Origin: Alistipes shahii
GTDB lineage: Bacteria > Bacillota_I > Bacilli_A > RFN20 > CAG-826
NCBI GenBank assembly: GCA_963598795.1
Contig: CAVBUY010000002.1
Span: 78,216 to 142,215, forward strand
Length of the DNA stretch: 64,000 nt
Direction: 5' to 3'
Part shown: piece by piece, positions 17,466 through 31,309 of the stretch
How positions within the stretch are numbered: the stretch's first letter is position 1
Layout of the letters: each line of letters opens with the position of its first letter
Program-made: the position numbers and the translations under genes
Notes under the pieces: generated by a model
The model's input: only the letters and a program-made list of their open reading frames with translations
Told to the model about the DNA's origin: nothing
Database searches by the model: none

Positions 17466-19187
17466 TTATCTGACTCGTTCAATGTTATTTCCGTAATTGG
17501 AAATATCGGGTTTGGCATAGCTTGCGCCTGTTGCCTCTTTTGAGTTTTCAAACGTTATTCCCTCGGCGTATGAATTGATATAGCCAACATATGATTCGTC
17601 AATCGCTTTGCCCATAATGGAAATGTTCTTGAAATGGACGTTTTTTACATAATGGGCTTCTTTAACGTAACCGTCTCTGGTCTCCATCGATCCGGTCACT
17701 TTGACTTTGGGGTTTTCGTATCCCGAAAGCACCAAGACATTTGAAACGTCAACGCCGTCTATGTCCCCTAAGGCCGTCTTTTTGTGATTGTCGCTCCAAG
17801 TGGGACTATATGATACGTCGAAATCAAATAGATAAGGATTTCCGTCGCCTTTTCCCATTGAGGCGTCTTCCACCGTTATATTTTCATAACGGACGTTCCT
17901 AATTTTGGCGTTATTGCCGTTATGAATGCTCATGACCGGTTTATGGAAAGCGTGCAAAACGGTGATGTTTGAAAAGGAGATGTCCTCCATCTTTTCGCCA
18001 ATGGTTTCATAACCGATTTCCATGCACTGAGCAAGGTCTGTGACGATTAAGCAATCAGAGAAATGGATTCCCGAAGTGACGCCTTCGGCCCCATTTCGAT
18101 AATCAACGTAATTCTTAACGACCAAGGAATCGTCCCATGTGCGGAGGAAACAGCCTTCGACATTTACGTTTTTGCAGCTTTGGATGGATATTCCATCTCC
18201 GTTGCTGCGGCTGGATATCGTCTTTGTGTTTCTAATGGTGACCCCATTGCCGAAATAAATGTTATAAGCCCAACCAGCCGGATCCATGATGGAAAAGTCC
18301 TCAAGGACGAAATTGCTGCAGAAATTAAAGTCTAACGGAATTAAGGCAGTCCCTTCGTTTGGATTTCTCGGAAAGATCGATCCATCGATGACACCAGGCC
18401 CTTTTATTGAGAAATTGGAGGCGTTATGAGCGGAGAATTTGGCTCTTACAACCGCTCCGTCTTCCAAATAAATATGCTCATTGGAATAAACGACGATCTC
18501 GTTGTTGCTATTTATTCTCGAATCGTTGTCCTTGGTATGAATTCCTCTTTTGAAAACGATTTTGCCTGCCGTATCTTCTTCTTTTATCTCGTTAACGAAA
18601 AGATGCAAAGTCCTTTGCCTTGTTTCGATTAGATATTGTCCTGGGCTATCGATGTCAAACGATATGACCCATCTCGCTTTATCTATTTGATAAGGGATAT
18701 TCTTTCCTAATGGCCTTATGGTCACATCTTCCAAAGGGTTGAAGTTGCATTGCAAAAAGAGCTTTACCTTGCCTTTGATGGCAATAATGGAATAAGCAGA
18801 CATTACGCGAATACCGGCATCAGCCTTCCAAATTCGATTTTCGTTGATATTGACTTTATAAACCGGCACGGATTCCCCGGAAACAAACAATCTCATATTC
18901 GGATAAAGTTCCATTCCCTCAACATAATCTGAAAATTTAACCTTATTCGTTTCTTTTGTATCGGATGGGTCGTTATTGGGAGCGAAATAGCTATGGTCAA
19001 AATCCTTATAGCCGTTTTCGTCCCGAGAATATGAAACATCGGAAGAGGAATCCGAGGCGGATTGACTTCCGTTTTGAGAGGAACTGTCGTTGCTGGAAGA
19101 AAACACAGAGTCGCATCCAGAGAGAGTCAAAGCAATCGTTGACATCAGCAAAGCAAGGAATCGCCGTTTTCTTTTGAAAAGAAGCAT
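17466..19187 (-). CDS. Surface lipoprotein, right-handed beta-helix glycoside hydrolase-like (GH28-like motifs, family uncertain)
   Basis: The 573-aa ORF has signal MLLFKRKRRFLALLMSTIALTLSGC followed by a Ser-rich linker. Its repetitive beta-helix coils contain SNGDGISIQSCKNVNVEGCFLRTWDDSLVVK, resembling the NTDG/GDD-type catalytic motifs of GH28. It is a paralogue of 31310..33967. Confidence 0.65.
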   Translation of the reverse strand: MLLFKRKRRFLALLMSTIALTLSGCDSVFSSSNDSSSQNGSQSASDSSSDVSYSRDENGYKDFDHSYFAPNNDPSDTKETNKVKFSDYVEGMELYPNMRLFVSGESVPVYKVNINENRIWKADAGIRVMSAYSIIAIKGKVKLFLQCNFNPLEDVTIRPLGKNIPYQIDKARWVISFDIDSPGQYLIETRQRTLHLFVNEIKEEDTAGKIVFKRGIHTKDNDSRINSNNEIVVYSNEHIYLEDGAVVRAKFSAHNASNFSIKGPGVIDGSIFPRNPNEGTALIPLDFNFCSNFVLEDFSIMDPAGWAYNIYFGNGVTIRNTKTISSRSNGDGISIQSCKNVNVEGCFLRTWDDSLVVKNYVDYRNGAEGVTSGIHFSDCLIVTDLAQCMEIGYETIGEKMEDISFSNITVLHAFHKPVMSIHNGNNAKIRNVRYENITVEDASMGKGDGNPYLFDFDVSYSPTWSDNHKKTALGDIDGVDVSNVLVLSGYENPKVKVTGSMETRDGYVKEAHYVKNVHFKNISIMGKAIDESYVGYINSYAEGITFENSKEATGASYAKPDISNYGNNIERVR

Positions 19188-20932
19188 ACGTTATCTACAC
19201 GGAAGGAAATTCCGATTTCCGCGCCTTTCTTGAATCGCCCTAAGCCTTCGGTCGATATAATCAAATCTTCATCTTTGCCGTTAACAAAGGCATAAACCAA
19301 TGTTTCTTCGCCGAGTTGCTCAAGCATATTGATTTTGGCTTTGATGTTTTGCTCAACGTAACGCAGATCGCCTTCGACGGAAATGGCTCTCGGACGGATT
19401 CCCATTATTACGTTCAAACCTAAATATTCTTCGTTGAAGCCTTTCATGCGTTCTTTGGGTAGTTCCAACTCTTTGCCATCTAAGAAGTTTGCATAATATT
19501 TACCTTTTTTCTTAGTGACCTTAGCCTCGAAGAAATTCATCTGAGGTGTTCCGATAAAACCGGCCACGAATTGATTTTTCGGATTTAGAAAAACATCTTC
19601 CGGGGAACCGATTTGCTGAATGATTCCATCTTTCAAAACGACGATTTTGCTACCCATTGTCATAGCTTCGACTTGATCGTGCGTAACATAGATAAAGATC
19701 GTTTTAAGCCTATCGTGCAAACGAGTTATTTCACTACGCATCGCAACGCGCATTTTGGCATCCAAATTAGAAAGAGGCTCATCCAAAAGGAAGACTTCCG
19801 GATCACGCACGATTGCGCGTCCCAAGGCGACTCTCTGCCTTTGCCCACCTGACAAATTGGCTGGCTTTCTATCCAAATATTCCGTTAAGCCTATCTTCTC
19901 GGCCGCGGCGTTTACTTTCTCTTTGATTTCTTTTTTGCGGTTTTTGCGGTATTTGAAATCAAAGAAATGCTTGAAGGGGATCTTTTCCACTTCGAGAGGG
20001 AAGGCAATATTTTTGAAAACGCTAAGGTGAGGATAGAGGGCGTAGTTCTGGAAAACCATGGCTATATTGCGGTTTTTGGCTTCTTCGTCAGTGATGTCTT
20101 TATCATCTAAAAAGATAGAACCATTGGTAACGTCCTCAAGACCGCCGATCATTCTTAACACCGTGCTTTTGCCACATCCAGAAGGACCGACGAAAACGAC
20201 GAATTCCTCATCGTAAATATCGAGATTGAAATCCTTGATGGCCGTAACGCCGTTAGGATATGTTTTATATAAAGACTCTATTCTCAAACGAGGGCCGTCA
20301 TCGACGTATTTGAGCAAATCGCTGAGCTTTTTTATGGGGTGGTCAGTGAATTTGCTATTTGAAGCAAAGCCGATTCCAAAAGAGGTGAAACCACCGGCTT
20401 TGGCGGCTTCTACACCAGCGTCGGCATCCTCCACAACGCCGCAATCGCTCGGATCCAAACCCAACTTTTGAGCCGCTAGCAAAAAGACTTCGGGGTTTGG
20501 CTTGGAATTTACGATCATGCTACCATCCACCATAACGTCGAAGAAATCTTTCAAACCGATTTTTTCCAAGATGAATGGGGCATTCTTGCTTCCGCTTCCT
20601 AAAGCCAGCTTGATTCCTTTTTCTCTCAAAGCCTTTAAGCTCGATAAGACATCTTTATCGACGTCGCTGGGCTTTAAAGACTCTAACAAGTGGCGATAAA
20701 TATCGTTTTTCTTGTCGCAAAGCGCTTCTTTTTCTTCTTTTGAATATTTTTTGTCGGCTTTCTCCAAAATGATATTCAATGAATCCATGCGAGAAACGCC
20801 GCGAAGGCGATTGTTTATTTCTTCATCAAAATATATGCCCTCATCATCGGCCATCTTCTTCCAAGCGGCGTAATGAAAATCGTCAGTAGAGATGATAACG
20901 CCATCCAAATCGAAGATAATTCCTTTAATCAT
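19145..20932 (-). CDS. Fusion protein: beta-phosphoglucomutase (HAD) N-domain plus MalK/MsmX-type sugar ABC transporter ATPase
   Basis: A single 595-aa ORF has no internal stop or start at the junction. Residues 1-~205 carry IIFDLDGVI (HAD motif I), LGSGSKN and VVEDADAGVEAAKAGG, typical of PgmB. The remainder carries GPSGCGKST, LSGGQRQRVALGRA, VFLLDEPLSNLD, VTHDQ and a MalK-like C-terminal regulatory domain. Confidence 0.8.
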   Translation of the reverse strand: MIKGIIFDLDGVIISTDDFHYAAWKKMADDEGIYFDEEINNRLRGVSRMDSLNIILEKADKKYSKEEKEALCDKKNDIYRHLLESLKPSDVDKDVLSSLKALREKGIKLALGSGSKNAPFILEKIGLKDFFDVMVDGSMIVNSKPNPEVFLLAAQKLGLDPSDCGVVEDADAGVEAAKAGGFTSFGIGFASNSKFTDHPIKKLSDLLKYVDDGPRLRIESLYKTYPNGVTAIKDFNLDIYDEEFVVFVGPSGCGKSTVLRMIGGLEDVTNGSIFLDDKDITDEEAKNRNIAMVFQNYALYPHLSVFKNIAFPLEVEKIPFKHFFDFKYRKNRKKEIKEKVNAAAEKIGLTEYLDRKPANLSGGQRQRVALGRAIVRDPEVFLLDEPLSNLDAKMRVAMRSEITRLHDRLKTIFIYVTHDQVEAMTMGSKIVVLKDGIIQQIGSPEDVFLNPKNQFVAGFIGTPQMNFFEAKVTKKKGKYYANFLDGKELELPKERMKGFNEEYLGLNVIMGIRPRAISVEGDLRYVEQNIKAKINMLEQLGEETLVYAFVNGKDEDLIISTEGLGRFKKGAEIGISFRVDNVCFFSKENGDSLLC

Positions 20933-23036
20933 TATTTGTTTCCTCCACCTTGGCTTCTTTTTTATTTATGCAAACCTTGTAGGTTTTATTCTTAACTTTT
21001 ATTTTATAACACATCGATTCAATTTCTTTTGGCAACCGATTCGAGCATGACACATTGCCTTCCTTGTCGATTTTTAAACCGCTGAACCCATATGTTGCCG
21101 ACATATATGCTCCGCCGGCGCTAGCAGGATGCGTCCCTCCGATATAAATCCCACCGGCATATAATTTTTGAGGGCCATATAAATCGATGGATGCGCTTTT
21201 TCTAAACATCGAATAAGCATATTCTCTATCGCCTATTGTAACGGCAAGCAGCGAATACATGGCGCTAGACAAACTTGATCCATGTTCTGTGCGTGGCAAG
21301 TAATAATCATAGTTGGCTTTTTTAACCGATAATGGGAATTCGTCGCTTAATAATGCCAATAAGGCCACCACGTCCGCTTGTTTAATTATTTGGGTTTCGC
21401 TAGCTGGCCCATCCTTGCCGCCCCAATATTGTTTGGGGTCTTTTATGCGACCTTTCAAAGTCTCTAAAGAACAATCTTCTTTTTTGAAATATCCTTCGAA
21501 TTGTTCGATGACGCCATTTTCGTTCGGCTTAGGCAAATAAATGCCAGAAACGAATTCTTCGAGTTTAGAAATTATCATTTCGGAATCGTTTATTAATGAC
21601 GAGTTTCTTTTTAATGAATCGATGGTGAATCTTATTATGTGAGCCACCATATAGTTGGTGAATGCGTTGTCGTTGACTCTTTCGTGATATTCATCGGGGC
21701 CGATTACGTCATCGATGTGATAAAGGCCGTCTTTTCTCTTTTTGGCGTAGCTTAGGAAAAACAAAGAACATTCAACCAATACATTCAAAGCCCCTTCATG
21801 CAATATCGATTCATCGCCAGTGATCTTAATGTAATTTTCGATAGCGTAAGGGATATCCGCGCTGATATGTATTTGCTTTTCGTTGAAATAGGTGCGGATG
21901 GGCTTGCCGGTTTTATAGTCGGTTACATTATATTTCGAACAAGCTTCCGATCCGTCATCTTGGCTTTCCCAAGAATAAAAGGCTCCTTCGTAACCGAATT
22001 CTTTGGCTTTCGCCTTTGCGCCTTCTAAAGTATTTATCCTATATAAAATCAAATTGCGGGCAACCTCAGGCTCATTTAAAGCAAAAAACGGCAGCAAGAA
22101 TATCTCGGTGTCCCAGAAAATGGCTCCTTTGTATGTTTGCCCGGAAACTCCGCGAGCCGGAATGCTCCTGGCTCTGTTTTTATCTCCCAAAATCAATAAT
22201 TCATATATTGAGTAACAAAGTTCGGCTTCCCCATCTTTATCCCCTGAAAGAGAAATTTTCGCTTGGTTATATAACGACGAAAAAGCGTTTATATGCGCTT
22301 CTTTTTCCTTTTGGTATCCGCTTTTAATAAGCTTTTCCATCTCTTTGGAAAAATTAGCTTCCTTTTCGAAAATTAAGGAGAAAATACGAAGCTCGAATTT
22401 CTCGCCTTTTTTAAGCTTTAAGTCGATTTCATAAAGCCCGTTTCTTAATGTTGCCTTGCCTTTGGAAAAAGAATAATTCACGGCCTCATACAATGTTTTG
22501 CCTTCGTTTGTTTTTCCCTCGAACACCAAGCAATTGGACTCTTCTCTGACGTTTTTTAGAACAAAATGGGGCCCGTTGATTTCGTAAATATCCAAATCGA
22601 GGCCGAAAACGAATCGGTATTCGCCCTCTTTTTTCGCTTCAATCTCAATAAAAGAAGACAAGAGATTGTCTTTGCTTTTAGAAAGAAAACGTTCGGTTTT
22701 TATTACATAAGACGGAAATTCGCTCCGTCTTACCAAAATCGCCTCATTTAGATGCAGCGTCAATTCATGAGACAAAGGCTCGGTCGTATTGACGGTTTCT
22801 TCTTTAGAACCGATGAAAGTCTTAAAAGAAATCGGATCTGGCAAATTGATGGATTCTCTCCATTTATCGCCCCTCCTATCGTAAACCCCTACGAGGTTAA
22901 AACCTTTCATGGAGGATTTTCCTTCTTCTTCCAAAACCCCGCGATAACCCAAGTGTCCGTTTCCAATAAGAAAACGATTCCCTTCTTCAACACGGCTTAA
23001 TTTGTTGAATTCAAGAACGCTTAGCGAATCGCTCAT
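20925..23036 (-). CDS. GH65 glycoside phosphorylase (shorter paralogue, 703 aa)
   Basis: It contains FWDTEIFLLPFF and the catalytic-acid region VIGPDEYHERVNDNAFTNYM, typical of GH65 (maltose, kojibiose and nigerose phosphorylases). It overlaps its neighbours by 4 and 8 nt. Confidence 0.8.
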   Translation of the reverse strand: MSDSLSVLEFNKLSRVEEGNRFLIGNGHLGYRGVLEEEGKSSMKGFNLVGVYDRRGDKWRESINLPDPISFKTFIGSKEETVNTTEPLSHELTLHLNEAILVRRSEFPSYVIKTERFLSKSKDNLLSSFIEIEAKKEGEYRFVFGLDLDIYEINGPHFVLKNVREESNCLVFEGKTNEGKTLYEAVNYSFSKGKATLRNGLYEIDLKLKKGEKFELRIFSLIFEKEANFSKEMEKLIKSGYQKEKEAHINAFSSLYNQAKISLSGDKDGEAELCYSIYELLILGDKNRARSIPARGVSGQTYKGAIFWDTEIFLLPFFALNEPEVARNLILYRINTLEGAKAKAKEFGYEGAFYSWESQDDGSEACSKYNVTDYKTGKPIRTYFNEKQIHISADIPYAIENYIKITGDESILHEGALNVLVECSLFFLSYAKKRKDGLYHIDDVIGPDEYHERVNDNAFTNYMVAHIIRFTIDSLKRNSSLINDSEMIISKLEEFVSGIYLPKPNENGVIEQFEGYFKKEDCSLETLKGRIKDPKQYWGGKDGPASETQIIKQADVVALLALLSDEFPLSVKKANYDYYLPRTEHGSSLSSAMYSLLAVTIGDREYAYSMFRKSASIDLYGPQKLYAGGIYIGGTHPASAGGAYMSATYGFSGLKIDKEGNVSCSNRLPKEIESMCYKIKVKNKTYKVCINKKEAKVEETNND

Positions 23037-25297
23037 CGTTTAATCTCCACACATCCTGAAATCAAAGTCTTTTTGCCATAAACGACAATTTCCACCGGCT
23101 CGCCTTTTAGATCGATCTGAATAGAATCTGGATAAACGTCAATGCGCAAATGACTATGGCGATAATTGAGCTTGACGGAATAATGTTTCCATTTGCTTGG
23201 CAAGGTGGGATTTATTAGCAATTCTTCGCGATCGCTTCTTAAACCGAGATAACCATAAACGATATTCATCCAGGCGGCCGCTATGCTGGTCATATGAAGG
23301 CCTTCGGAAGTGTTGCGGTTATAATCGTCCAAATCCAAACGGGTGGCAAAACCAAAGAATTTCAAAGCTTCTTGCTCTTTGCCCAATTCTTGGGCGATGA
23401 TGCTATGAACGCTGGGAGACAAGGAAGATTCGTGAATGCAACGTGGCTCATAATATTCATAGTTGGCCTTTTTGACATCCAACGAATAATCTTGAGCGTA
23501 AAGGAAAATGAACATTAAGACATCCGGTTGTTTGATCATGTCGTTTCGATAAATGCGATCATATGACCAATTGTTGTATAGTGGGAAATCCGTGACGGGA
23601 ATCTTATCTACGTCGATATGTGGAAGATCGTAAAAGCCTTGATGCTGTTCATATAATTTCGTTTCGTTGTTATAAAGAATCAGCATTTTTTCCATTTTTT
23701 CTTTCATCTCGTCGATTTTTTTATAATCGAAACCGACTTCCCGCATGATTTCGTCTTTGCGGACCCGATAATCATCAAGGACTCTCAAAGTATATTCGAA
23801 CGTCTTCTTGGCCATGATGTTGGTGTACATATTGTGGTTGACCATGACCTCGAATTCGTCCGGACCCATAACTCCGTAATAGCCGAAATGTTCATGAGTT
23901 TGATTCCATTGCCCACGAGTCAGCAAAAATTTGTCGATTTCAAGCAACATCTTCAATCCATAGTGATTCATGAAATCCCAATCGGAATAAAGGTTCATGT
24001 AATGGAAGATGGCATACGCGACGGCGGTCGTAGGCTGGATTTGGGTAGAAGCGTGTTGCCAAAGGGTGCAAGCTTCTTCCCCATTTCTGGTGGCGATCGG
24101 AAAACAAGCGCCTTCGCAATCCAATTCCTTTGCCCTTTCTTTGGCTTTATCTAAGGTATTGAATCTGAACAACAGCAAATCTTTGGCCGCTTTTTGATTG
24201 GTGAAAAGATAATAAGGCAAACAATATGTCTCGCTATCCCAAAAGGCATGACCGCTATAAGCTTCGCCCGTTAGTCCTTTGGCGCCTATGTTATTGTCCG
24301 GGGCTAGTCCGTTATAAGCCTGTTGGAGGTTAAACAAGCAAAAACGGACGCCCTGCTGATCGTCTTCATCTCCGTCTATCTCTATATCGCTTTCTTTTAT
24401 GCGCTCCGCAAAGAATCCTTCATTTTCTTTTAAAAGCCCTTCAAAGCCTTTTTCTTTGAGAACCGATAGTTTTTTAATGGCTTCTTTAATCATTTCTTCG
24501 CCATTTTCGTCGCTATGCTTGTCGATTAGATTCTCAACATAGCGGGTAAAGACTGTCTCTTTTCCTTTATCTAAAACGAATTCATATTTCGAGGTTATGG
24601 TCTTATCCTCGCAAACATTGGCTAACGGCCCATAAGCGGATTCCACATCCATCAAAGTCACTATGGATTGATGAGTGGTCAAAGTTTTCATGAAAAGGCC
24701 ATATTTGCCTTCGTTTTTAATATAGCTACCCAAATTCCAATAGCAACGGTCGTTCCAATGGAGAATGCTTCCGTCAATAGATAAAGATAGTTTGATCTTA
24801 ACTTCTTCGTCAGATTTAAAGCTTATCCTTTGGACCGCGGATTCAGGCGATTTCATGCCCAATAAGCGTTCGAAAACGATTTTTATTTCTTTCTTTGAAG
24901 AGGTGTGCCAAACGAACGAACGTCTAAGCAAGCCGTTTCTGAAATCCAGCGATCTTTCGAAATCCGAAATATCAGCATTTGCCAAGTCCAATTTTTCCCC
25001 GTCCGCGACAATTTCGCATTTTAGATAATTCGGGGAATTGATGGTGAAATGGCTTCTTTTCGCTATACCTTTATAAGCGTTCGGGGTCTCGGTAGGCGAA
25101 TATTCGATTATGCCATTATAGTAAGTGCCGATAAGGGTTGGCAAAGAAACGCCCTCTTCCAAGAAACCACGGACTCCGCTATATTCGTTTCCCAAGGAAA
25201 AAATGGATTCGCTGACTTTGTTGCGATCTTTATGGAATCCCTTTTCGACCACTCTCCAAGGTTCCACTTCCAAATATCTGTTACGTATTTTGCCCAT
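23033..25297 (-). CDS. GH65 glycoside phosphorylase (754 aa; kojibiose/nigerose/maltose phosphorylase-like)
   Basis: Its N-terminus is YLEVEPWRVVEKGFHKDRNKVSESIFSLGNEYSGVRG. It contains FWDSETYCLPYY and GVMGPDEFEVMVNHNMYTN. These are canonical GH65 features. Confidence 0.85.
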   Translation of the reverse strand: MGKIRNRYLEVEPWRVVEKGFHKDRNKVSESIFSLGNEYSGVRGFLEEGVSLPTLIGTYYNGIIEYSPTETPNAYKGIAKRSHFTINSPNYLKCEIVADGEKLDLANADISDFERSLDFRNGLLRRSFVWHTSSKKEIKIVFERLLGMKSPESAVQRISFKSDEEVKIKLSLSIDGSILHWNDRCYWNLGSYIKNEGKYGLFMKTLTTHQSIVTLMDVESAYGPLANVCEDKTITSKYEFVLDKGKETVFTRYVENLIDKHSDENGEEMIKEAIKKLSVLKEKGFEGLLKENEGFFAERIKESDIEIDGDEDDQQGVRFCLFNLQQAYNGLAPDNNIGAKGLTGEAYSGHAFWDSETYCLPYYLFTNQKAAKDLLLFRFNTLDKAKERAKELDCEGACFPIATRNGEEACTLWQHASTQIQPTTAVAYAIFHYMNLYSDWDFMNHYGLKMLLEIDKFLLTRGQWNQTHEHFGYYGVMGPDEFEVMVNHNMYTNIMAKKTFEYTLRVLDDYRVRKDEIMREVGFDYKKIDEMKEKMEKMLILYNNETKLYEQHQGFYDLPHIDVDKIPVTDFPLYNNWSYDRIYRNDMIKQPDVLMFIFLYAQDYSLDVKKANYEYYEPRCIHESSLSPSVHSIIAQELGKEQEALKFFGFATRLDLDDYNRNTSEGLHMTSIAAAWMNIVYGYLGLRSDREELLINPTLPSKWKHYSVKLNYRHSHLRIDVYPDSIQIDLKGEPVEIVVYGKKTLISGCVEIKR

Positions 25298-25300
25298 AAT

Positions 25301-26233
25301 TTATTCTTTGCTTCCTTTATTGGCTCCAACGCCCATAATCTGACGTTGGAAGATGAGAAATATGATGACTTGAGGAATGATGGATAAGACCAATAACATA
25401 AGGAATTCCTCAGGCTTTAATATGTCTCCGGCGTTTCCGATATCATAAATCCCGACCATTAACGTCTTCAGTTTGTCGTTCTGCAATACGAGGTATGGCA
25501 ACAAGAAGTCGCTATAAGAGGCAGTCATCGAGAAGATGGCGACGATGCCGATGATCGGTTTGGACAAAGGAAGGACGACGCGAGCGAATATCTGCATGCG
25601 GTTTGCTCCATCCATGCTGGCGGCTTCTATCAATGATTTGGGAAGCCTTGAGAAATAGTCTTTGAATAAGGTGTAGTAATAAGCATTGGCCCCAAAGCTT
25701 AGCCATAACGACAAGAACATAAGGTAAGATTCGTTGTCGGCCTGCAATAGTCCGATGGCGTTTATTTCCCTAATAAGCGGGAAGATGTTTAATACCGCCG
25801 GAATCATATAACCCAAGAAAATCAATTTATCGATTATTTTGTGGCCAACCGGTTTTATTATAGCTATTGCATAAGCAAGCAAACTGTTGAATACGACTGC
25901 GCAGATAACCGCGCCGATAACATAAACGAAGGTATTTAGGTAATAACGGCCGAAATCAATCTTTTGCCATAGTTCAACAACCTTATTCCAGTCCCAGACT
26001 TTAGGCCAAAACGTGTAGGTGGCGCTATAAATTTCCCCAGGGCTCTTTAATGAGCTCGCAAACAGATAAATGATGGGGAAAAGAGCCATGAAGGAGAAAA
26101 TACATAGGAATATGATAATCATTCCATAACCCGCTTTATGCCATGGGCTACGGTAATCGGCGAAGTTCAAGAATCCGCCGCGCTTGTCCTTCAAAAGTGG
26201 GAAGGTATATTTCTTCTTTTCTTTCCTTTTCAT
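25301..26233 (-). CDS. Carbohydrate ABC transporter permease (MalG-like)
   Basis: It has six TM-like segments and the EAA loop LIEAASMDGANRMQIFARVVLPLSKP. I chose the ATG at 26233, directly after the upstream stop. Confidence 0.85.
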   Translation of the reverse strand: MKRKEKKKYTFPLLKDKRGGFLNFADYRSPWHKAGYGMIIIFLCIFSFMALFPIIYLFASSLKSPGEIYSATYTFWPKVWDWNKVVELWQKIDFGRYYLNTFVYVIGAVICAVVFNSLLAYAIAIIKPVGHKIIDKLIFLGYMIPAVLNIFPLIREINAIGLLQADNESYLMFLSLWLSFGANAYYYTLFKDYFSRLPKSLIEAASMDGANRMQIFARVVLPLSKPIIGIVAIFSMTASYSDFLLPYLVLQNDKLKTLMVGIYDIGNAGDILKPEEFLMLLVLSIIPQVIIFLIFQRQIMGVGANKGSKE

Positions 26234-27147
26234 TTGCCTTCCCTCTTTTTTAAGAAACGATCTAACCATGCGTAAGCCAATGTAAAGGCAACGATAATGG
26301 CGGCCAAAACCATGGCGCAGGCTGCGCTCTTTCCATATTCAAAATCTTCGAAAGCGTATAGATAGGATAAAAGCATCAATGACATCGAGCTATTTAGCGG
26401 ACCGCCTTTAGGGCCGATGATCAAAGGCTCATAAAAAACTTGGAAAACGCTGATAATCTGCAAAACCAGCAAAGTCAGCATCGTCCCCCTCAAAGCGGGA
26501 ATGGTAACGCGCCAAAACCTCTGCCATGAACTGGCTCCGTCGATACGAGCGGCTTCATACATCGAATCGTCGATGGATTGGAAGGCGCTTAAATAAATTA
26601 ACGCAGTGCTTCCGGCCCCCTTCCAAGTCATGGCTAGCACTATCAAAGGGATAATCAAAGAAGTGGATCCCTTCCAAGGATGGGCTTCACCTCCAAATTT
26701 GGTGATTATCCAATTGAATAAGTCGTTGCTGGAATCCCCGTACATAGAATTGAACAAGAAGACCACGGCCATTCCGCTAATCATGCACGGAAGATACAAA
26801 ATAATGCGGAATAAGCCTTTCGCATGTATCACTTCGCTTAATAGGAAACCTAGGATTACCGGCACCAAATAGCCGATTGCCAAGGACCATAAAATATATA
26901 AGAAGGTGTTTTTCAAAGCGCTTAAGAACGTAGGGTCCTCAAAAATGGCTTTGAAGTTGGCAAAACCGACGAATTGGGGATCGTCATAGCCATCTTGAAA
27001 GGACAATATGGCGTTTCTTATCATCGGATACCAAACGAAAAAGGCAAACAAAACGAGAGGGACAATCATAAAGGCCCAGCCGATAAGGTTCTTTTTTAAA
27101 GAAGCCTTCCAATTCTTTTTTCGTTTTAGGTTGCCTTTCCTTTTCAT
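26230..27147 (-). CDS. Carbohydrate ABC transporter permease (MalF-like)
   Basis: The 305-aa ORF has the EAA loop YEAARIDGASSWQRFWRVTIPAL and six TM-like segments. Confidence 0.85.
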   Translation of the reverse strand: MKRKGNLKRKKNWKASLKKNLIGWAFMIVPLVLFAFFVWYPMIRNAILSFQDGYDDPQFVGFANFKAIFEDPTFLSALKNTFLYILWSLAIGYLVPVILGFLLSEVIHAKGLFRIILYLPCMISGMAVVFLFNSMYGDSSNDLFNWIITKFGGEAHPWKGSTSLIIPLIVLAMTWKGAGSTALIYLSAFQSIDDSMYEAARIDGASSWQRFWRVTIPALRGTMLTLLVLQIISVFQVFYEPLIIGPKGGPLNSSMSLMLLSYLYAFEDFEYGKSAACAMVLAAIIVAFTLAYAWLDRFLKKREGK

Positions 27148-27155
27148 AAATAAGG

Positions 27156-28568
27156 TTATTTATTGATAGTCTTATCCAATTCTTTCTGAAGGGTTTGAGA
27201 CGCGGTTTGCAACAAAGCTTTGCAATTGGCATTCTCTAGGTTGGCAAAGACGCTTTGGAGGGCGGTATCCAAGGCTTCATACATCTCCTGAGCCGCGTAT
27301 GGCTCTTCGCTTTTTTTGTTGCTTTGTATAGAAGAAAAGAACGGAGAATAGTCAGTCATGTCGACCGTAATATATCGTTGTTCTAATTCATTGGCTTTTG
27401 CCAAATAATCGGCGTCCTTCCAAGGCATGATGGTTGGTAATACTGGCTGATTCTTGTTCTTAGCCACTTCATAACCTTCTTCCTTGGCTTTCATGTTGTT
27501 GTCGCTAATGGACGGGGAACGGCCAATATAATCGAAAAACTTAAGGATGCCTTCGACTTTTTCGTCGGAAACGTTCTTGGTGAAAACATATGGAGTTCCG
27601 CCATAAAGGGAATAATGATGGGTCCCATCTCCGGTTGGCATCGGGACAAAGGCCAAGTCGGACATGTCAACGTCCCCTTGAAGTTTGGCTTGCTGGAGGA
27701 CATCGCTTCCAACGACTGCCATAGCGACCTTCTCGCCGATATTGGCATACCAGTCGTTATAAACGCAGCTTACGGCATCTTGGATGATCCCGTCGACTTT
27801 CATCTTCTTGATCCATTCAAGCGCCGATACGGCTCCCGCGCAATCGAGATTGGCTTTCCATTTGCCACTTTCTTGAACTTCCAATTCGGCCCCAAAATTC
27901 CAAGCGATGTTGGAAAAAACCCAACCGCCGTTCTTGTTGGCGCTATACATCAAAAAGCCTTTGGCGGAGTCTTCATTCTCATTTACGATGGTATTTCCAT
28001 ATTCATAAACCTGCTCCCAAGTAGTCGGATAAGCCGGGGTGCCGTCAGATTTGAAAATGTTATAAGTATGGTCGGCATTTTCCGGCAATAAGCCATTGTC
28101 GCCCAAAATTTTCTTATTTATCAATAATCCCAATCCATAGCCATCGCGTGGAATGCCATAGATTTCATTGTCAAAAGTCAAAGATTCTTTCATCTCGTCA
28201 TCCATCTTTTGATCCCAACCCAAGGCTCTTAGCTGAGTGGTGATTGAACGGATGATTTTCTTATCCATCAATTTCTCTGGCTCGGTAAACCATGTCTGCC
28301 AAACATCCGGAAGGCTGCCGGTACTGGCCTTTTGCCCAACGGTCTCGGTGCTATAGGTATATGGCATGCCTTTGATCTTATATTGAGGGTTTTCGTCTTC
28401 GAAACGCTTGGCCCAGACCTCATACATCGCCACATCTTGCTTAGAGGCGCTTTCCGGCCAAAAACCTATTTTCAAAACAATCTTATCGCCATCGCCTCCG
28501 CCATCACAGGAAGCCAATAAAACGCAGGCTAACGCTGATAAAATTTTTAAACTGTGGTTCTTTTTCAT
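27156..28568 (-). CDS. Sugar ABC transporter substrate-binding lipoprotein (family 1 SBP)
   Basis: The 470-aa ORF has lipobox VLLASC and the size and composition typical of an SBP. It sits immediately upstream of the two permease genes. Confidence 0.8.
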   Translation of the reverse strand: MKKNHSLKILSALACVLLASCDGGGDGDKIVLKIGFWPESASKQDVAMYEVWAKRFEDENPQYKIKGMPYTYSTETVGQKASTGSLPDVWQTWFTEPEKLMDKKIIRSITTQLRALGWDQKMDDEMKESLTFDNEIYGIPRDGYGLGLLINKKILGDNGLLPENADHTYNIFKSDGTPAYPTTWEQVYEYGNTIVNENEDSAKGFLMYSANKNGGWVFSNIAWNFGAELEVQESGKWKANLDCAGAVSALEWIKKMKVDGIIQDAVSCVYNDWYANIGEKVAMAVVGSDVLQQAKLQGDVDMSDLAFVPMPTGDGTHHYSLYGGTPYVFTKNVSDEKVEGILKFFDYIGRSPSISDNNMKAKEEGYEVAKNKNQPVLPTIMPWKDADYLAKANELEQRYITVDMTDYSPFFSSIQSNKKSEEPYAAQEMYEALDTALQSVFANLENANCKALLQTASQTLQKELDKTINK

Positions 28569-28589
28569 AAAACTGCCCCTTATAAATCA

Positions 28590-28617
28590 GGGGGAAGGGT
28601 GTCCTTCCCCCTTTTTT
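28590..28617 (+). terminator. GC-rich hairpin with a T6 run in the plus orientation only, inside the minus-strand operon
   Basis: The sequence is GGGGGAAGG-GTGT-CCTTCCCCC followed by TTTTTT on the plus strand. On the minus strand the same stem is followed by TGATTTAT. Confidence 0.4.
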
Positions 28618-28648
28618 AAGTATAACTTCAATCTTTAAGGCTAAAGAT

Positions 28649-31276
28649 CTATTCGGCTGGAGTAACGGTCTCCCAAGCCTGGTTGTAGTTGGCTACGCCG
28701 TTTTCGTAAGGATATTCTTTGGCAAGAACCTTGGAGGCTCCCAAAGAAAGTTTCCAAGCATGAGTTTGAGAATTATGGAAGTGGAGAACATCACCTTTTA
28801 CGAAGTTAATACCGGCGGCCTTCAAATCAATAACGATCGTTTTGGCTGCGGAAGTAAGCATAGCGGATAGATCAACGGCTGTACCATCAACGTTTTTGAT
28901 AAACCCAGCAACGTCTTTGGCCCAAATAGCTTCCTGTTCGCTATTCTTTGAGATCCTGAATTGATATAAATCGGATGAACCGTCGCTAGAAGAGACATCG
29001 ACATAAATTCTGTCGACGTTGGAAGTTACATCCCATCCACCAACGTAGTTGTATCCAGCGTCGCTTTCAACGTCTTTCGCGCCCATGCCATCATACATAT
29101 AGCCTGAGCTGGCTTTGAAGAATTCGATGAACTTGATGGTGCCACCGCCCAGTTCGGCATCGCCGGAGTGAATATGCATCCAACCATCACCTTCGGTCGG
29201 GAAAACACTCAAATCGGCATAGTAAGTGGTTGCTTCGGCCGGGATAACGGTGTCTGCAGAAACCTTAGATCCATTCTCATCATAGATGGTGATGGCGTTA
29301 TCTTTCGGCCATAAAGTCTTGCCATTCTGCTGGAAGCGGAGAGACTTTAAGGTAGCGTTGGTGCCATCGCCTTGAACGGTGAATCCAAGGTAATCGCCAT
29401 CAAAAGCTGGACCACAGTTGCCGGCATAGAAATAAGCGGTCATATCGTGTTCGGCGGCGGAATCAGCCCAACCGGAGACGACCTTTTCCGCGCTGAAGGA
29501 GTTAGCGTAGAAGATGGAATCAATAGATATGGCCTTAGCGCCTGTGTAATAGATATTGATAAGATCTTTAGCCACCAAGTTGTGCAAGCTTAAATCGACG
29601 ACATACCAGGTATAGCCATTGGCGTCCTTATAAGGGCTTTGGATGTTTTCGTCGCCATAGGTCTTAACGCCTTCCATAGCCAATGCGGAGTTAAACCAAA
29701 CAGCTTGTGCGCCTGAACCAAGTTCGAAACGGAAACTGGACAAGTCATAGCCTTCTTCGCCAGTGATGGCAAAGACCAGATATTGAGCGCCGCTTAGAAC
29801 GTGAGTGGAGCCAATAGTAACCTCGTCATAATTATCGGTAGCAGGCAAATGCAACGCGCCATTGCTGGTCGAGATATTTGCGCCATTGGAATAAGAAATA
29901 AAGCCATTGATGCCAGCCTTGATGTTTCTTTCATCGGCAGCGGAAGCGTCCCAATTGTCATCTAAGGAAGCAAAGTCACGATTGAAGTTATCAAAAGTGA
30001 CGGCATTCGCGGTATTCAAATGAGGGTATTTCTTATCGAGCTGTGGCTCTTCAAAGTCCGTCATGAAGACATTGGCAATATTCAATTCGTTCTTGCCATC
30101 GTTTTTTATGGTGATGGTCTTGATGTTGACATTGTCCGCGGCTTTGAAGATAGAAAGATCGATAGCCAAAGGCGCATAGGCGCCATCAACGGCATTAACG
30201 ACAGCCTTATCGGTTTTGGCTTTAAGATCAGCGAAAGGCAATTCCTTCTTCGTCTCATTGTCATAAGCCACCTCGATAGAAGCGCCGCTCATATCGCCCA
30301 AAACATCGAAAACGACGTGGGAATAGGCTCTTTGCTTTTCGCTTAATGTCGGAGTTGTGTATTTTTTGCCATCCGAGATTTCGATACCTTTGCGGACCAA
30401 AACGGCGTCAGCGCAATCAGTCGGACCCCAATAAACGTTGGGATTTCCACCGATCTTATCGCGGGCAAAATCATCTATGACGACTGTGGAATCGCCTTTG
30501 CTATAAGAAACCTCAGCGATTTCGATAACGGCTGAGACATCAGCGTCGGCCTTTACATAAAGGTGCATGCCCAAAGCGGATTCGAGAACCTTCAATTGGG
30601 TATCCGGGAATAATGTGTTTTCATCGCCGATTGATTCGGAAATGGAAATTGACAAAGTCTGGAATTCGTCAGTGAGTTCCGGAAGGGCTTCTTGATCTCC
30701 ATCGACGGCCTTATCCAAAGCGATTGGATAAACGTGAGCGCTGTTATCGTCGCTTGGACGAATAGCGAAAATCAAATCCTTGAGGGCTAATTTTCCTTCG
30801 ATCACGCGCATTTTGAAATTGACGACGGATTGTCCTAAGAGGGTCTTATCGCCATCGAAGGCGCTGCTGGCCATCTTATAAATGGCGGCGTCCGGGCTAT
30901 TTTGGAAGCTCGTCAATTTGCTATCGACAACTTCCCTCAATATGCCTTTATGCAAAACGCCATCGGAAACGCCATTGATGGATTCGCCGGAGAAATCCTC
31001 GACGATTGCGTCAAAACGCTCATCATATTCGCGAGTGATGGCGCCATCCCCCAACGTCTTAGTCAGTCCGTCTCTATGTTGGACTGGGTCTGTTGGGGTC
31101 GGAGTCGGGATACTCGAAGACGAGCTGCCCGGATCGGATGAGGATGAAGATGGGGCTATAGAAGAAGTGTCGTCCCCACCTTTGCTGGATGTGGAGGAAT
31201 CATCGTCGTTGCAACCAGCCATAATCAAGCTGGCAGCAAGCGGCAACATGACCCACAAGATTTTTTTACCTTTCAT
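28649..31276 (-). CDS. Large multi-module surface lipoprotein of unknown function (candidate glycan-binding protein)
   Basis: The 875-aa ORF has lipobox LIMAGC and a Ser-rich linker. It then has about five beta-sandwich-sized modules. Several open with a CBM-like 'hydrophobic-[DE]-[DN]-F' motif (IVEDFSGE, VIDDFARD, TFDNFNRD). Confidence 0.6.
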   Translation of the reverse strand: MKGKKILWVMLPLAASLIMAGCNDDDSSTSSKGGDDTSSIAPSSSSSDPGSSSSSIPTPTPTDPVQHRDGLTKTLGDGAITREYDERFDAIVEDFSGESINGVSDGVLHKGILREVVDSKLTSFQNSPDAAIYKMASSAFDGDKTLLGQSVVNFKMRVIEGKLALKDLIFAIRPSDDNSAHVYPIALDKAVDGDQEALPELTDEFQTLSISISESIGDENTLFPDTQLKVLESALGMHLYVKADADVSAVIEIAEVSYSKGDSTVVIDDFARDKIGGNPNVYWGPTDCADAVLVRKGIEISDGKKYTTPTLSEKQRAYSHVVFDVLGDMSGASIEVAYDNETKKELPFADLKAKTDKAVVNAVDGAYAPLAIDLSIFKAADNVNIKTITIKNDGKNELNIANVFMTDFEEPQLDKKYPHLNTANAVTFDNFNRDFASLDDNWDASAADERNIKAGINGFISYSNGANISTSNGALHLPATDNYDEVTIGSTHVLSGAQYLVFAITGEEGYDLSSFRFELGSGAQAVWFNSALAMEGVKTYGDENIQSPYKDANGYTWYVVDLSLHNLVAKDLINIYYTGAKAISIDSIFYANSFSAEKVVSGWADSAAEHDMTAYFYAGNCGPAFDGDYLGFTVQGDGTNATLKSLRFQQNGKTLWPKDNAITIYDENGSKVSADTVIPAEATTYYADLSVFPTEGDGWMHIHSGDAELGGGTIKFIEFFKASSGYMYDGMGAKDVESDAGYNYVGGWDVTSNVDRIYVDVSSSDGSSDLYQFRISKNSEQEAIWAKDVAGFIKNVDGTAVDLSAMLTSAAKTIVIDLKAAGINFVKGDVLHFHNSQTHAWKLSLGASKVLAKEYPYENGVANYNQAWETVTPAE

Positions 31277-31309
31277 AATGTTTTCCTTTCTGAAAGTTTT
31301 TAATCATTT

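What the first reader, a model, noticed from the sequence alone, without database searches (positions are those of the whole stretch)
19145..20932. Beta-phosphoglucomutase fused in-frame to the MalK-type ABC transporter ATPase
A single 595-aa ORF joins a complete HAD beta-PGM to a complete sugar-ABC ATPase. The beta-PGM part has DLDG nucleophile motif IIFDLDGVI, LGSGSKN and EDADAGVEAA. The ATPase part has GPSGCGKST, LSGGQRQR, LLDEP, VTHD and a MalK-like regulatory C-domain. The junction ...LLKYVDDGPRLRIESLYKTY... contains no stop, start or RBS. This would physically couple import energisation to the enzyme that converts the GH65 product, beta-glucose-1-phosphate, into glucose-6-phosphate. I do not recognise this architecture as described. 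The ATPase also has an extra basic insertion (IPFKHFFDFKYRKNRKKEIK) after the Q-loop region.
Basis: partly seen in the sequence, partly recalled or inferred. Interest (0 to 1): 0.7.

Follow-up and report, generated by a model that had tools for sequence, protein, structure and literature searches.

The report
Sugar-phosphate mutase fused to transporter ATPase
One gene in an uncultured gut bacterium really does join the enzyme beta-phosphoglucomutase to the ATP-burning motor of a sugar importer; the join is conserved in many relatives and seems unreported, but it most likely arose by simply losing the stop codon between two neighbouring genes.

Summary
The 595-aa ORF at 19145..20932 (-) is real. 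Residues 1-210 are a complete beta-phosphoglucomutase: it scores above NCBI's curated cutoff and all catalytic residues are present. Residues 216-595 are a complete MsmX/MalK-type ABC ATPase with its regulatory domain. About five residues join the two halves.

It is not an assembly artefact. More than 130 distinct full-length fused proteins (45-99% identical) occur in independent assemblies and in at least 14 species-level genomes of uncultured gut Bacilli. All sit in the same operon: binding protein, two permeases, two GH65 enzymes, fusion. Both halves are under purifying selection.

The origin is clear. A close relative (L052) keeps the two genes split by TAATAA-AGGAGG-ATG. E. coli has ycjT-ycjU-ycjV in the same order with a 13-nt gap. 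One E. coli-type contig is fused by a 1-nt deletion.

The 13-aa basic insertion is real, but it is separable from the fusion in both directions.

The best reading is a bifunctional protein: the operon's own transporter ATPase carrying an active beta-PGM at fixed 1:1 stoichiometry. Allosteric coupling between the halves is not shown.

I found no paper describing this architecture. It is a new variant of known kinds, of moderate interest.

The parts
19145..20932 (-). Whole fused gene (595 aa plus stop): beta-phosphoglucomutase joined to an MsmX/MalK-type ABC ATPase
   Evidence: ORF and sequence; Pfam and NCBIfam domains; more than 130 full-length fused homologues
20303..20932 (-). beta-PGM domain, aa 1-210 (HAD core plus helical cap)
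   Evidence: TIGR01990 scores 245 bits against a cutoff of 189. Aligns to L. lactis beta-PGM 1lvh residues 1-190 at E 9e-48, with D8, D10, T16, H20, G45/V46/R48, S113/S115/K116/N117, K144 and E168-D169 present. All of these are invariant in 120 members except V46 and K116, which are at least 90% conserved. The stand-alone beta-PGM of L052 ends opposite V210.
20288..20302 (-). Junction, aa 211-215 (DDGPR): a short linker in the position of the former intergenic spacer
   Evidence: AF2 places helix 203-210, then strand 216-224, with pLDDT about 88. The split relative L052 has TAATAA-AGGAGG-N9-ATG at this point. This is the fastest-evolving segment by dN. Linker length and sequence vary among family members but always stay in frame.
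19553..20287 (-). ABC nucleotide-binding domain, aa 216-460 (Walker A, Q-loop, LSGGQ, Walker B, D-loop, H-switch)
   Evidence: PF00005 at E 2e-34. 48-50% identity to Clo1313_2554 (7x0q) and B. subtilis MsmX (6yir), with Foldseek TMt 0.85-0.91. Motif residues are invariant in 120 members.
19937..19975 (-). 13-aa basic/aromatic insertion FKHFFDFKYRKNR (aa 320-332) in the helical subdomain, between its first and second helices
   Evidence: Aligns to a gap in the four best PDB homologues. Near-invariant in L001-L014 and absent from unfused L015-L026. Also present in the unfused P0122, absent from fused P0121/P0270/P0271/P0272, and replaced by a 35-36-aa insertion in P0273/P0274.
19148..19552 (-). 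C-terminal MalK-type regulatory (OB/TOBE-like) domain, aa 461-595
   Evidence: PF17912 OB_MalK scores 39 bits against a cutoff of 27. Alignments to MsmX/MalK run to the C-terminus. AF2 gives a beta-rich fold with pLDDT above 90.
20925..23036 (-). GH65b (703 aa), immediately upstream; its stop overlaps the fusion's start by 8 nt
   Evidence: Pfam Glyco_hydro_65N and 65m. Best PDB hit is 4ktp (deposited as 'Glycoside hydrolase family 65 central catalytic') at E 6e-109, then kojibiose phosphorylase 3wiq. Adjacent to the fusion in every locus.
23033..25297 (-). GH65a (754 aa)
   Evidence: Pfam GH65 N, m and C domains. Hits PDB 6w0p, deposited as 'Kojibiose phosphorylase', at E 1e-271, and maltose phosphorylase 1h54 at E 2e-129. 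Synteny is conserved.
25301..27147 (-). Two ABC permease genes (26230..27147 and 25301..26269, overlapping by 40 nt)
   Evidence: PF00528 BPD_transp_1 on both; conserved synteny
27156..28568 (-). Extracellular solute-binding protein (470 aa)
   Evidence: PF01547 SBP_bac_1; conserved synteny
17466..19187 (-). Downstream beta-helix (GH28-like) protein with a lipoprotein-type N-terminus; its start overlaps the fusion's 3' end by 43 nt
   Evidence: PF00295 at E 2e-8; weak PDB hits to exo-polygalacturonosidase and pectate lyase folds. It follows the fusion in most loci.

Best explanation
The gene encodes a truly bifunctional polypeptide.

Its C-terminal 380 residues are the nucleotide-binding subunit of the ABC importer encoded just upstream (binding protein plus two permeases). 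No other ATPase gene lies in the operon. Like MalK or MsmX, it should dimerise under the permeases and power uptake of an alpha-glucoside.

Its N-terminal 210 residues are a catalytically competent beta-phosphoglucomutase. This enzyme converts beta-glucose-1-phosphate, which the two upstream GH65 enzymes are inferred to release if they are phosphorylases, into glucose-6-phosphate.

The fusion arose by loss of the stop codon and spacer between an adjacent pgmB-like gene and a ycjV/msmX-like gene. The former intergenic region became a linker of about five residues.

The consequences are fixed 1:1 synthesis (two mutase domains per transporter) and tethering of the mutase at the cytoplasmic face of the importer. 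The two activities most likely run independently. The benefit is matched expression and co-localisation in small, compact genomes, not obligatory allosteric or channelling coupling.

Shown here: the architecture, its conservation, intact catalytic motifs, operon context and evolutionary route. Inferred: both activities, which transporter the ATPase serves, the phosphorylase activity of the GH65 enzymes, and the absence of allostery.
For: Architecture and completeness:
- The beta-PGM model TIGR01990 scores above its curated cutoff.
- Residue-by-residue alignment to L. lactis beta-PGM shows the nucleophile/acid-base pair (D8/D10), the hinge (T16, H20), distal-phosphate binders (R48, S115, K116, N117), K144 and the Mg site (E168-D169).
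- All ABC motifs and the regulatory domain are intact.
- These residues are invariant or at least 90% conserved in 120 family members.

Not an artefact:
- At least 132 full-length fused proteins were retrieved, 45-99% identical to the query.
- 14 species-level genomes carry it.
- Identical fused genes were recovered from ENA and separate Logan assemblies.

Selection:
- dN/dS is at most 0.15 in the mutase, NBD and C-domain wherever dS could be computed.
- dS is mostly saturated, yet the reading frame is kept. The linker evolves fastest.

Operon:
- SBP, two permeases, GH65a, GH65b and the fusion occur in that order in every locus long enough to show it, down to about 45-50% identity, with no other NBD gene in the cluster.

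Origin:
- L052 has a 211-aa beta-PGM (58% identical), then TAATAA, AGGAGG, 9 nt and ATG, then an ATPase 52% identical overall to the query's ATPase half (61% over matched stretches) with the same insertion.
- E. coli K-12 has ycjT (GH65), ycjU (beta-PGM), a 13-nt gap, then ycjV (ABC ATPase). These are 42% and 52% identical to the two halves.
- An E. coli-type contig (P0277/L051) is fused by a single-base deletion 17 nt before the ycjU stop.

Structure:
- AF2 gives mean pLDDT 91, pTM 0.76 and a confidently modelled junction.
- The ATPase half superposes on MsmX/MalK at TMt 0.85-0.91.
Against: - No activity of either half was measured, and none can be with these tools.
- The very short linker (about 5 residues between the last mutase helix and the first NBD strand) and a pTM of 0.76 suggest a defined inter-domain arrangement. 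That would also fit functional coupling.
- I could not read inter-domain contacts or PAE from the model. I also could not model the dimer with the permeases, so steric compatibility with NBD dimerisation and permease docking is assumed, not shown.
- One genome (L010) has a second, stand-alone MsmX-like ATPase 4 kb away. It is therefore not proven which ATPase serves which transporter.
- Cap residue K45 of the L. lactis enzyme is Arg here (R44, invariant in the family).
- The GH65 enzymes are assigned as phosphorylases only from their closest solved homologues, and some bacterial GH65 enzymes are hydrolases.
Confidence: 0.6

Rival explanations
1. Regulatory coupling. The mutase domain is active or semi-active and also works as a built-in sensor. 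Substrate-driven cap closure or the phospho-enzyme state (beta-G1P, beta-glucose-1,6-bisphosphate, G6P) is passed through the short linker to the NBD. Import is throttled when sugar phosphates accumulate. This resembles trans-inhibition by the C-terminal domains of MetN and ModC, or inhibition of MalK by EIIA-Glc.
For: - The linker is very short and confidently modelled, and pTM is 0.76 for a three-domain chain.
- The fusion persists over divergence with saturated synonymous sites and in several sub-lineages.
- The main family carries a conserved basic/aromatic insertion in the helical subdomain.
- From general knowledge, beta-G1P accumulation is harmful in L. lactis pgmB mutants, so feedback on uptake would be useful.
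Against: - There is no direct evidence.
- The insertion is separable from the fusion both ways, so it is not a fusion-specific interface.
- The split state in L052, E. coli and the Acholeplasmataceae MAG L032 shows the system works without covalent linkage.
- All catalytic residues are kept, as expected for a plain enzyme.
Confidence: 0.18
2. Transport metabolon. The tethered mutase recruits the GH65 phosphorylases to the importer. Imported oligosaccharide is then phosphorolysed and isomerised at the membrane, with substrate channelling.
For: - GH65a, GH65b and the fusion are adjacent in every locus examined.
- In the window their stop and start codons overlap, by 4 nt between GH65a and GH65b and by 8 nt between GH65b and the fusion. 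This suggests co-translation and balanced synthesis.
Against: - No interaction data or interface prediction was possible.
- Operon adjacency is equally expected without any complex.
- Split systems exist.
Confidence: 0.08
3. One half is degenerate. Either the mutase domain is a non-catalytic appendage, or the ATPase is inactive and transport is powered by a separate shared MsmX-type ATPase.
For: - A second MsmX-like ATPase lies near the operon in L010.
- NCBIfam UgpC (421 bits against 432) and MalK (376 against 568) models fall below their cutoffs.
- K45 of the L. lactis enzyme is Arg here.
Against: - All catalytic and nucleotide-binding residues are invariant across 120 members.
- dN/dS is at most 0.15 in both halves.
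- TIGR01990 scores above its cutoff.
- The R44 substitution is also found in stand-alone relatives (L032 and L052).
Confidence: 0.05
4. Assembly, sequencing or gene-calling artefact. A frameshift or lost stop merges two separate genes in this window only.
For: A single-contig E. coli-type 'fusion' (P0277) differs from K-12 by one deleted base and could itself be a sequencing error. Such artefacts are therefore possible in principle.
Against: - More than 130 distinct fused sequences from NCBI, ENA, JGI and Logan assemblies and 14 species-level genomes all keep one frame, despite 45-99% identity and in-frame length variation in the linker.
Confidence: 0.01

Closest known systems
E. coli ycj cluster: YcjT (GH65 kojibiose phosphorylase), YcjU (beta-phosphoglucomutase), YcjV (ABC ATPase)
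   Same: The gene order is the same (GH65, then beta-PGM, then ABC ATPase), in a cluster that also encodes a binding protein and two permeases. YcjU is 42% identical to aa 2-188 and YcjV is 52% identical to aa 215-552. Functions are as summarised in PMC11543891.
   Different: In E. coli these are two separate genes with a 13-nt spacer, and ycjV is a pseudogene in K-12. There is one GH65 rather than two, only 25-28% identical to the window's GH65s. The cluster has extra ycjQRS/ycjM enzymes and OmpG, and no insertion in the ATPase.
Split pgmB-ATPase pair on metagenome contig L052 (P0122)
   Same: This is the closest unfused state found. The beta-PGM is 58% identical and ends exactly where the window's linker starts. 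The ATPase is 52% identical overall to the query's ATPase half (61% over matched stretches) and carries the same 13-aa insertion.
   Different: A double stop TAATAA, a canonical AGGAGG Shine-Dalgarno sequence and an ATG separate the two genes. The ATPase has an extra insertion of about 45 aa in its regulatory domain. Only a 2.7-kb contig is available, so the wider context is unknown.
Lactococcus lactis beta-phosphoglucomutase (PgmB; PDB 1lvh, 2wf5 and others)
   Same: It has the same HAD fold class with a helical cap. All catalytic and phosphate-binding residues align over residues 1-190 at E 9e-48.
   Different: It is a stand-alone 221-aa soluble monomer. Its K45 is Arg here. The window's domain has its C-terminal helix joined directly to an ABC NBD.
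MsmX/MsmK-type sugar-importer ATPases (B. subtilis MsmX 6yir; C. thermocellum Clo1313_2554 7x0q) and MalK
   Same: They share the NBD plus OB/TOBE regulatory domain, at 48-50% identity (41% to E. coli MalK) and TMt 0.85-0.91.
   Different: They are stand-alone proteins of about 365 aa. From general knowledge, MsmX/MsmK are typically encoded away from the transporter operons and shared by several importers. The window's ATPase is encoded inside one operon, has an N-terminal enzyme domain and carries a 13-aa insertion in the helical subdomain.
ABC proteins with accessory domains (general knowledge: MetN C2 and ModC trans-inhibition domains, OpuAA CBS domains, C39-peptidase domains of PCAT exporters)
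   Same: An extra domain sits on the ABC polypeptide and links transport to cytoplasmic chemistry or to processing.
   Different: The importer examples are C-terminal, non-catalytic ligand sensors. The PCAT peptidase is N-terminal but belongs to exporters and acts on the cargo itself. Here a central-metabolism enzyme acting two steps downstream of import sits N-terminal to an importer NBD. No sensor role is shown.

Membership tests
beta-phosphoglucomutase (HAD superfamily, NCBIfam TIGR01990 equivalog) | Score above the curated equivalog cutoff over the full model | tested here: met
   245.2 bits against a cutoff of 189.4; aa 2-188 cover model positions 1-187 of 187
beta-phosphoglucomutase (HAD superfamily, NCBIfam TIGR01990 equivalog) | HAD motif I DxDG: Asp nucleophile and Asp+2 general acid/base | tested here: met
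   D8 and D10 align to D8/D10 of 1lvh and are invariant in 120 members
beta-phosphoglucomutase (HAD superfamily, NCBIfam TIGR01990 equivalog) | HAD motifs II-IV (Ser/Thr, Lys, acidic Mg2+ pair) | tested here: met
   S113, K144 and E168-D169 align to S114, K145 and E169-D170 of 1lvh and are invariant
beta-phosphoglucomutase (HAD superfamily, NCBIfam TIGR01990 equivalog) | Cap and hinge residues that bind the sugar and the distal phosphate (T16, H20, G46, V47, R49, S116, K117, N118 in L. lactis numbering) | tested here: met
   All are present. T16, H20, G45, R48, S115 and N117 are invariant; V46 and K116 are at least 90% conserved. L. lactis K45 is Arg (R44) here and also in stand-alone relatives.
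beta-phosphoglucomutase (HAD superfamily, NCBIfam TIGR01990 equivalog) | Catalyses beta-G1P to G6P via beta-glucose-1,6-bisphosphate | not testable with these tools
   Needs an enzyme assay
MalK/MsmX/UgpC-type (CUT1) ABC importer ATPase | Walker A, Q-loop, LSGGQ signature, Walker B with catalytic Glu, D-loop, H-switch | tested here: met
   GPSGCGKST, MVFQNYALYPH, LSGGQRQR, FLLDEP, SNLDA and VTHDQ are all present and invariant in the family
MalK/MsmX/UgpC-type (CUT1) ABC importer ATPase | C-terminal OB/TOBE regulatory domain | tested here: met
   PF17912 scores 39.2 bits against a cutoff of 27. Alignments to MsmX/MalK reach the C-terminus. Foldseek TMt is 0.85-0.91 over about 380 columns.
MalK/MsmX/UgpC-type (CUT1) ABC importer ATPase | Encoded with a binding protein and two BPD_transp_1 permeases | tested here: met
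   SBP_bac_1 and two PF00528 genes lie upstream, conserved in all loci
MalK/MsmX/UgpC-type (CUT1) ABC importer ATPase | Orthology to E. coli MalK or UgpC (NCBIfam curated cutoffs) | tested here: not met
   UgpC subfamily 421.4 bits against 432; MalK equivalog 375.6 against 568. It is therefore a family member but not a named MalK or UgpC orthologue. YcjV is the nearest named E. coli protein, at 52% identity.
MalK/MsmX/UgpC-type (CUT1) ABC importer ATPase | ATP hydrolysis that energises transport with the cognate permeases | not testable with these tools
   Needs reconstitution
Shared 'multitask' MsmX/MsmK ATPase | Single stand-alone ATPase encoded apart from the transporter operons and serving several importers | tested here: not met
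   The gene sits inside one conserved operon. L010 has a separate stand-alone MsmX-like gene nearby. Whether the fusion also serves other importers cannot be tested here.

The most novel reading that the evidence does not exclude
The tethered beta-phosphoglucomutase is more than a passenger enzyme. It acts as a catalytic sensor that gates the importer. Its cap-open/closed or phospho-enzyme state, set by beta-G1P, beta-glucose-1,6-bisphosphate and G6P levels, is passed through the five-residue linker to the NBD. Uptake is thereby matched to downstream capacity. This would be a new kind of trans-regulation of an ABC importer, by an N-terminal metabolic enzyme domain.
Probability: 0.15. Interest if true: 0.7.

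Novelty: new variant of a known kind. Interest (0 to 1): 0.4.

Why it matters
1. **Annotation.** Pipelines name these proteins for one half only: 'beta-phosphoglucomutase' at NCBI and 'multiple sugar transport system ATP-binding protein' at JGI. Metabolic reconstructions of these uncultured gut Bacilli will therefore miss either the transporter's ATPase or the mutase.

2. **Functional linkage.** The fusion is a natural 'Rosetta stone'. It ties YcjV-type ATPases to GH65/beta-PGM alpha-glucoside pathways. That supports the view that E. coli's poorly characterised ycjNOP-ycjV transporter belongs functionally with YcjT/YcjU.

3. **A test system.** A central-metabolism enzyme covalently attached to an importer NBD is unusual. 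It offers a simple way to ask whether tethering a downstream enzyme to a transporter changes flux, or whether the enzyme's state feeds back on transport.

4. **Evolution.** Split, sporadically fused and stably fused states of the same gene pair are all available. Together they make a clean example of how operon compaction creates multidomain proteins.

Tried and rejected
- **Assembly or frameshift artefact: rejected.** The same fused frame appears in more than 130 distinct proteins, several data sources and 14 species-level genomes.
- **Internal translation start producing a separate ATPase: rejected for this window.** The window has no Shine-Dalgarno-like sequence at the junction. The codon at the equivalent of the ATPase start varies (ttg, tta, atc, atg, gtt, att) across 18 genes. 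A few members (L012, with GGAGG upstream of GTG-ATG, and L006, L014) could retain relic signals.
- **The 13-aa insertion as a fusion-specific interface: rejected.** It is present in the split P0122 and absent from or different in fused P0121, P0270-P0274.
- **Single versus multiple origins of the fusion: unresolved.** A neighbour-joining tree of ATPase halves groups the main family with the P0278 group, P0271-P0274 and the split P0122. It places P0121/P0270 with unfused ATPases. Internal branches are very short, no better tree software was available, and all lineages share the same operon core. Only the E. coli-type P0277 is clearly independent.
- **My recollection that PDB 6w0p is E. coli YcjT: wrong.** YcjT is only 25-28% identical to GH65a/b, whereas 6w0p matches GH65a at E 1e-271.
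- **A solved structure containing both halves: none found**, by sequence or by fold.
- **Literature: six full-text searches found nothing on the fusion**.
- **Long MsmX-like proteins as reverse-order fusions: rejected.** Proteins of 600-870 aa in the exhaustive search have Pfam-less C-terminal extensions and no HAD domain.
- **dN/dS:** synonymous sites are saturated for most pairs, so only some ratios could be computed.

Full report
**1. Observation**

The window carries a 595-codon ORF at 19145..20932 on the minus strand. It has an ATG start and no internal stop.

Pfam finds a HAD hydrolase domain at aa 2-185, ABC_tran at 233-387 and the MalK OB-fold at 461-514. NCBIfam's beta-phosphoglucomutase equivalog TIGR01990 matches aa 2-188 over its whole length, at 245 bits against a cutoff of 189. 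UgpC/MalK-type models match aa 216-590.

Window GC is 43.5%, and the two halves do not differ in composition.

**2. Are both halves complete and plausibly active?**

The N-terminal half aligns to Lactococcus lactis beta-PGM (PDB 1lvh) over residues 1-190 at E 9e-48. It has the nucleophile D8, the acid/base D10, hinge residues T16 and H20, the cap loop G45-V46-S47-R48, the S113/S115/K116/N117 loop, K144 and the Mg2+ pair E168-D169. Only K45 of the lactococcal enzyme differs: it is R44 here. The same Arg occurs in stand-alone relatives.

The C-terminal half aligns end to end with C. thermocellum Clo1313_2554 (7x0q, E 4e-112), B. subtilis MsmX (6yir, E 2e-107) and MalK, with every ABC motif intact.

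In an alignment of 120 family members, these catalytic residues are invariant or at least 90% conserved in both halves.

dN/dS is at most 0.15 for the mutase, NBD and C-domain wherever dS could be estimated. dS is saturated for most pairs, and the linker evolves fastest.

An AlphaFold2 model built on the family alignment has mean pLDDT 91.3 and pTM 0.76, with about 88 across the junction. It places helix 203-210, a five-residue connection, then strand 216-224.

Foldseek against the PDB matches only the ATPase half (TMt 0.85-0.91, TMq at most 0.57). No solved chain contains both halves by fold or by sequence.

**3. Artefact?**

No.
- A search of 5.8 billion proteins returned at least 120 clusters of 586-603 aa, 55-99% identical over 100% of the query. 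All carry HAD plus ABC_tran, nearly all with OB_MalK as well.
- With the divergent members found later, 132 full-length fused proteins were retrieved.
- 14 species-level genomes carry the full gene.
- Identical copies were recovered from ENA and from separate Logan assemblies.
- Linker length and sequence vary but always stay in frame.

At 50% clustering, the exhaustive search shows essentially one representative (P0070) plus a divergent one (P0121). This is a compact family.

The carriers are uncultured gut Bacilli. MAG labels include Bacilli, Bacillales, Candidatus Enteromonas, Erysipelotrichaceae, Anaeroplasmataceae and Mollicutes. A few 'cleanbin' labels such as Alistipes or Faecalibacterium look like mislabelled bins.

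**4. Context**

The gene order is the same in every locus long enough to show it, down to about 57% identity:
- an 875-aa protein of unknown family
- a solute-binding protein
- two permeases
- GH65a
- GH65b
- the fusion
- a beta-helix (GH28-like) lipoprotein

In the more divergent fused lineages P0104, P0121, P0272 and P0274, the core from the binding protein to the fusion is kept.

No other ABC ATPase gene lies in the operon. The only other ABC ATPases in the window are ECF-type genes at 54129..55804.

GH65a matches PDB 6w0p (deposited as 'Kojibiose phosphorylase') at E 1e-271, and maltose phosphorylase at E 2e-129. GH65b is closest to 4ktp, which I recall as a 2-O-alpha-glucosylglycerol phosphorylase, and to kojibiose phosphorylase 3wiq.

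The inferred pathway is: import of an alpha-glucoside, phosphorolysis to beta-G1P, then isomerisation to G6P. The exact substrate is not established. The phosphorylase assignment rests only on these closest homologues.

Genes in the operon overlap repeatedly: 4 nt, 8 nt, 40 nt and 43 nt.

**5. Origin of the fusion**

Three observations define the route.

(a) *The split state in a close relative.* Contig L052 encodes a 211-aa beta-PGM, 58% identical to window aa 2-210 and ending opposite V210. It is followed by TAATAA, AGGAGG, nine bases and ATG. Then comes an ATPase that is 52% identical overall to the query's ATPase half (61% over matched stretches in the exhaustive search) and carries the same 13-aa insertion. 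The window's DDGPR linker sits exactly where that spacer is.

(b) *The same order in E. coli.* E. coli K-12 has ycjT (GH65 kojibiose phosphorylase), ycjU (beta-PGM), a 13-nt gap and ycjV (ABC ATPase). The same cluster holds a binding protein and two permeases. YcjU and YcjV are 42% and 52% identical to the two halves.

(c) *A one-step fusion.* An E. coli-type Logan contig (P0277/L051) is fused by a single-base deletion 17 nt before the ycjU stop, so the old Shine-Dalgarno region is translated as linker. This shows one mutation is enough. It is a single contig and may be a sequencing error.

An Acholeplasmataceae MAG (L032) has the orthologous operon with a stand-alone beta-PGM at the end, and an ATPase placed between the permeases and GH65a.

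Whether the stable fusion arose once or several times is unresolved. A neighbour-joining tree of ATPase halves groups most fused lineages with the split P0122, but puts P0121/P0270 among unfused ATPases on very short internal branches. All fused lineages share the same operon core.

**6. The insertion**

FKHFFDFKYRKNR (aa 320-332) lies between the first and second helices of the NBD's helical subdomain. It is missing from the four best-matching solved homologues, the ones whose alignments I inspected. It is nearly invariant in the main fused family and absent from unfused relatives in other Clostridia and Bacillota.

However, it is not tied to the fusion:
- It is present in the split P0122.
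- It is absent from fused P0121, P0270 and P0271/2.
- It is replaced by a 35-36-aa insertion in fused P0273/4.
- The stand-alone MsmX-like ATPase in L010 has a roughly 60-aa insertion at the same site.

This site is therefore an insertion hot spot in this lineage's sugar ATPases. From memory, and not tested here, this part of MalK lies near the permease coupling helices, so the insertion may concern permease or membrane contact rather than the mutase.

**7. Mechanism**

Best explanation (confidence about 0.6): this is a bifunctional protein. Its ATPase half is the operon's own NBD, and its mutase half is an active beta-PGM. The fusion was created by loss of the stop and spacer between adjacent genes. 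It is kept because it gives matched 1:1 synthesis and membrane-proximal localisation at no cost in compact genomes. The domains work independently.

Rivals:
- The mutase acts as a catalytic sensor that gates the ATPase (0.18).
- A transporter-GH65-mutase metabolon (0.08).
- One degenerate half (0.05).
- An artefact (0.01).

The short, confidently modelled linker keeps the sensor model alive. Working split systems, and the fact that the insertion is separable from the fusion, argue against obligatory coupling.

**8. Novelty**

Both domains are textbook families, and the gene pair is known as separate genes in E. coli. The covalent architecture is present in public databases, but only under single-function names. 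Six full-text searches found no description of it.

It is a new variant of known kinds. It is moderately interesting as a natural enzyme-on-transporter fusion, and it is of practical relevance for annotation.

Noticed in passing
window 17466..35135 (- strand): The fusion is part of a larger conserved carbohydrate locus. It contains a LacI-family regulator (34116..35135), two beta-helix GH28-like proteins (32741..33967, and 17466..19187 with a lipoprotein-type N-terminus), an F5/8-type-C (discoidin) protein (31310..32713) and an 875-aa protein with no Pfam or PDB sequence match (28649..31276). That last gene sits just upstream of the transporter genes in 11 of the 14 full-length genome loci and in the P0104 loci. 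This looks like an extracellular glycan-degrading front end feeding the GH65 pathway. The polysaccharide is unknown.
   Followed up: partly
window 19145..27147: Neighbouring genes overlap repeatedly: GH65a/GH65b by 4 nt, GH65b/fusion by 8 nt, the two permeases by 40 nt, and the fusion with the downstream lipoprotein ORF by 43 nt. This suggests tight translational coupling and genome compaction, the setting in which a stop-loss fusion is easy. The 40-nt and 43-nt overlaps depend on which start codon is really used.
   Followed up: no
L010 15698..16708: A second, stand-alone MsmX-like ATPase lies 4 kb from the fusion in one related genome. It is 48% identical to the fusion's NBD and has an insertion of about 60 aa at exactly the site of the window's 13-aa insertion. 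This site appears to be an insertion hot spot in sugar ATPases of this lineage.
   Followed up: partly
proteins P0123-P0157 (exhaustive search): Many MsmX/MalK-like proteins of 600-870 aa have a normal N-terminal ATPase plus regulatory domain, followed by 250-480 residues with no Pfam match. Their origin and function were not examined.
   Followed up: partly
L051 2837..4591 (Logan ERR2754043) compared with L044 (E. coli K-12 ycjU-ycjV): An E. coli-type contig carries ycjU and ycjV as one 584-aa ORF, caused by a single-base deletion 17 nt before the ycjU stop. It may be a real variant or a sequencing error. The ATPase half is 98.9% identical to an intact unfused YcjV-like protein (P0169), whereas K-12's ycjV is a pseudogene.
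   Followed up: yes
L032 1064..10621 (Acholeplasmataceae MAG WOFB19): This is an orthologous operon with a different layout: binding protein, two permeases, unfused ATPase (39% identical), GH65a, GH65b, then a stand-alone beta-PGM (57% identical). The ATPase position differs between lineages, so the fused lineages either rearranged the operon or recruited a different ATPase paralogue.
   Followed up: partly
window 35328..42071 (- strand): A 1061-aa protein with three Big_2 (bacterial Ig-like) repeats is followed by three ORFs (267, 606 and 288 aa) with no Pfam match at E up to 1e-5. They could be a surface or adhesion-related cluster.
   Followed up: no
window 53258..55804 (- strand): Two tandem ABC ATPase genes (54983..55804 and 54129..54992), 28-30% identical to the fusion's NBD, are followed by a 293-aa ORF. 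The layout resembles an ECF-transporter energising module (EcfA1-EcfA2-EcfT). This was not verified with family models.
   Followed up: no
L012 junction (about 10600-10660), also L006 and L014: In a few family members the linker still contains a GGAGG-like stretch followed by GTG-ATG or ATG at the equivalent of the ATPase start. Many linkers are Glu/Lys-rich, encoded by purine-rich DNA (for example GAAAAGGAAGAC). This fits the linker being a translated relic of the old ribosome-binding site. Residual internal initiation in those members cannot be excluded.
   Followed up: partly
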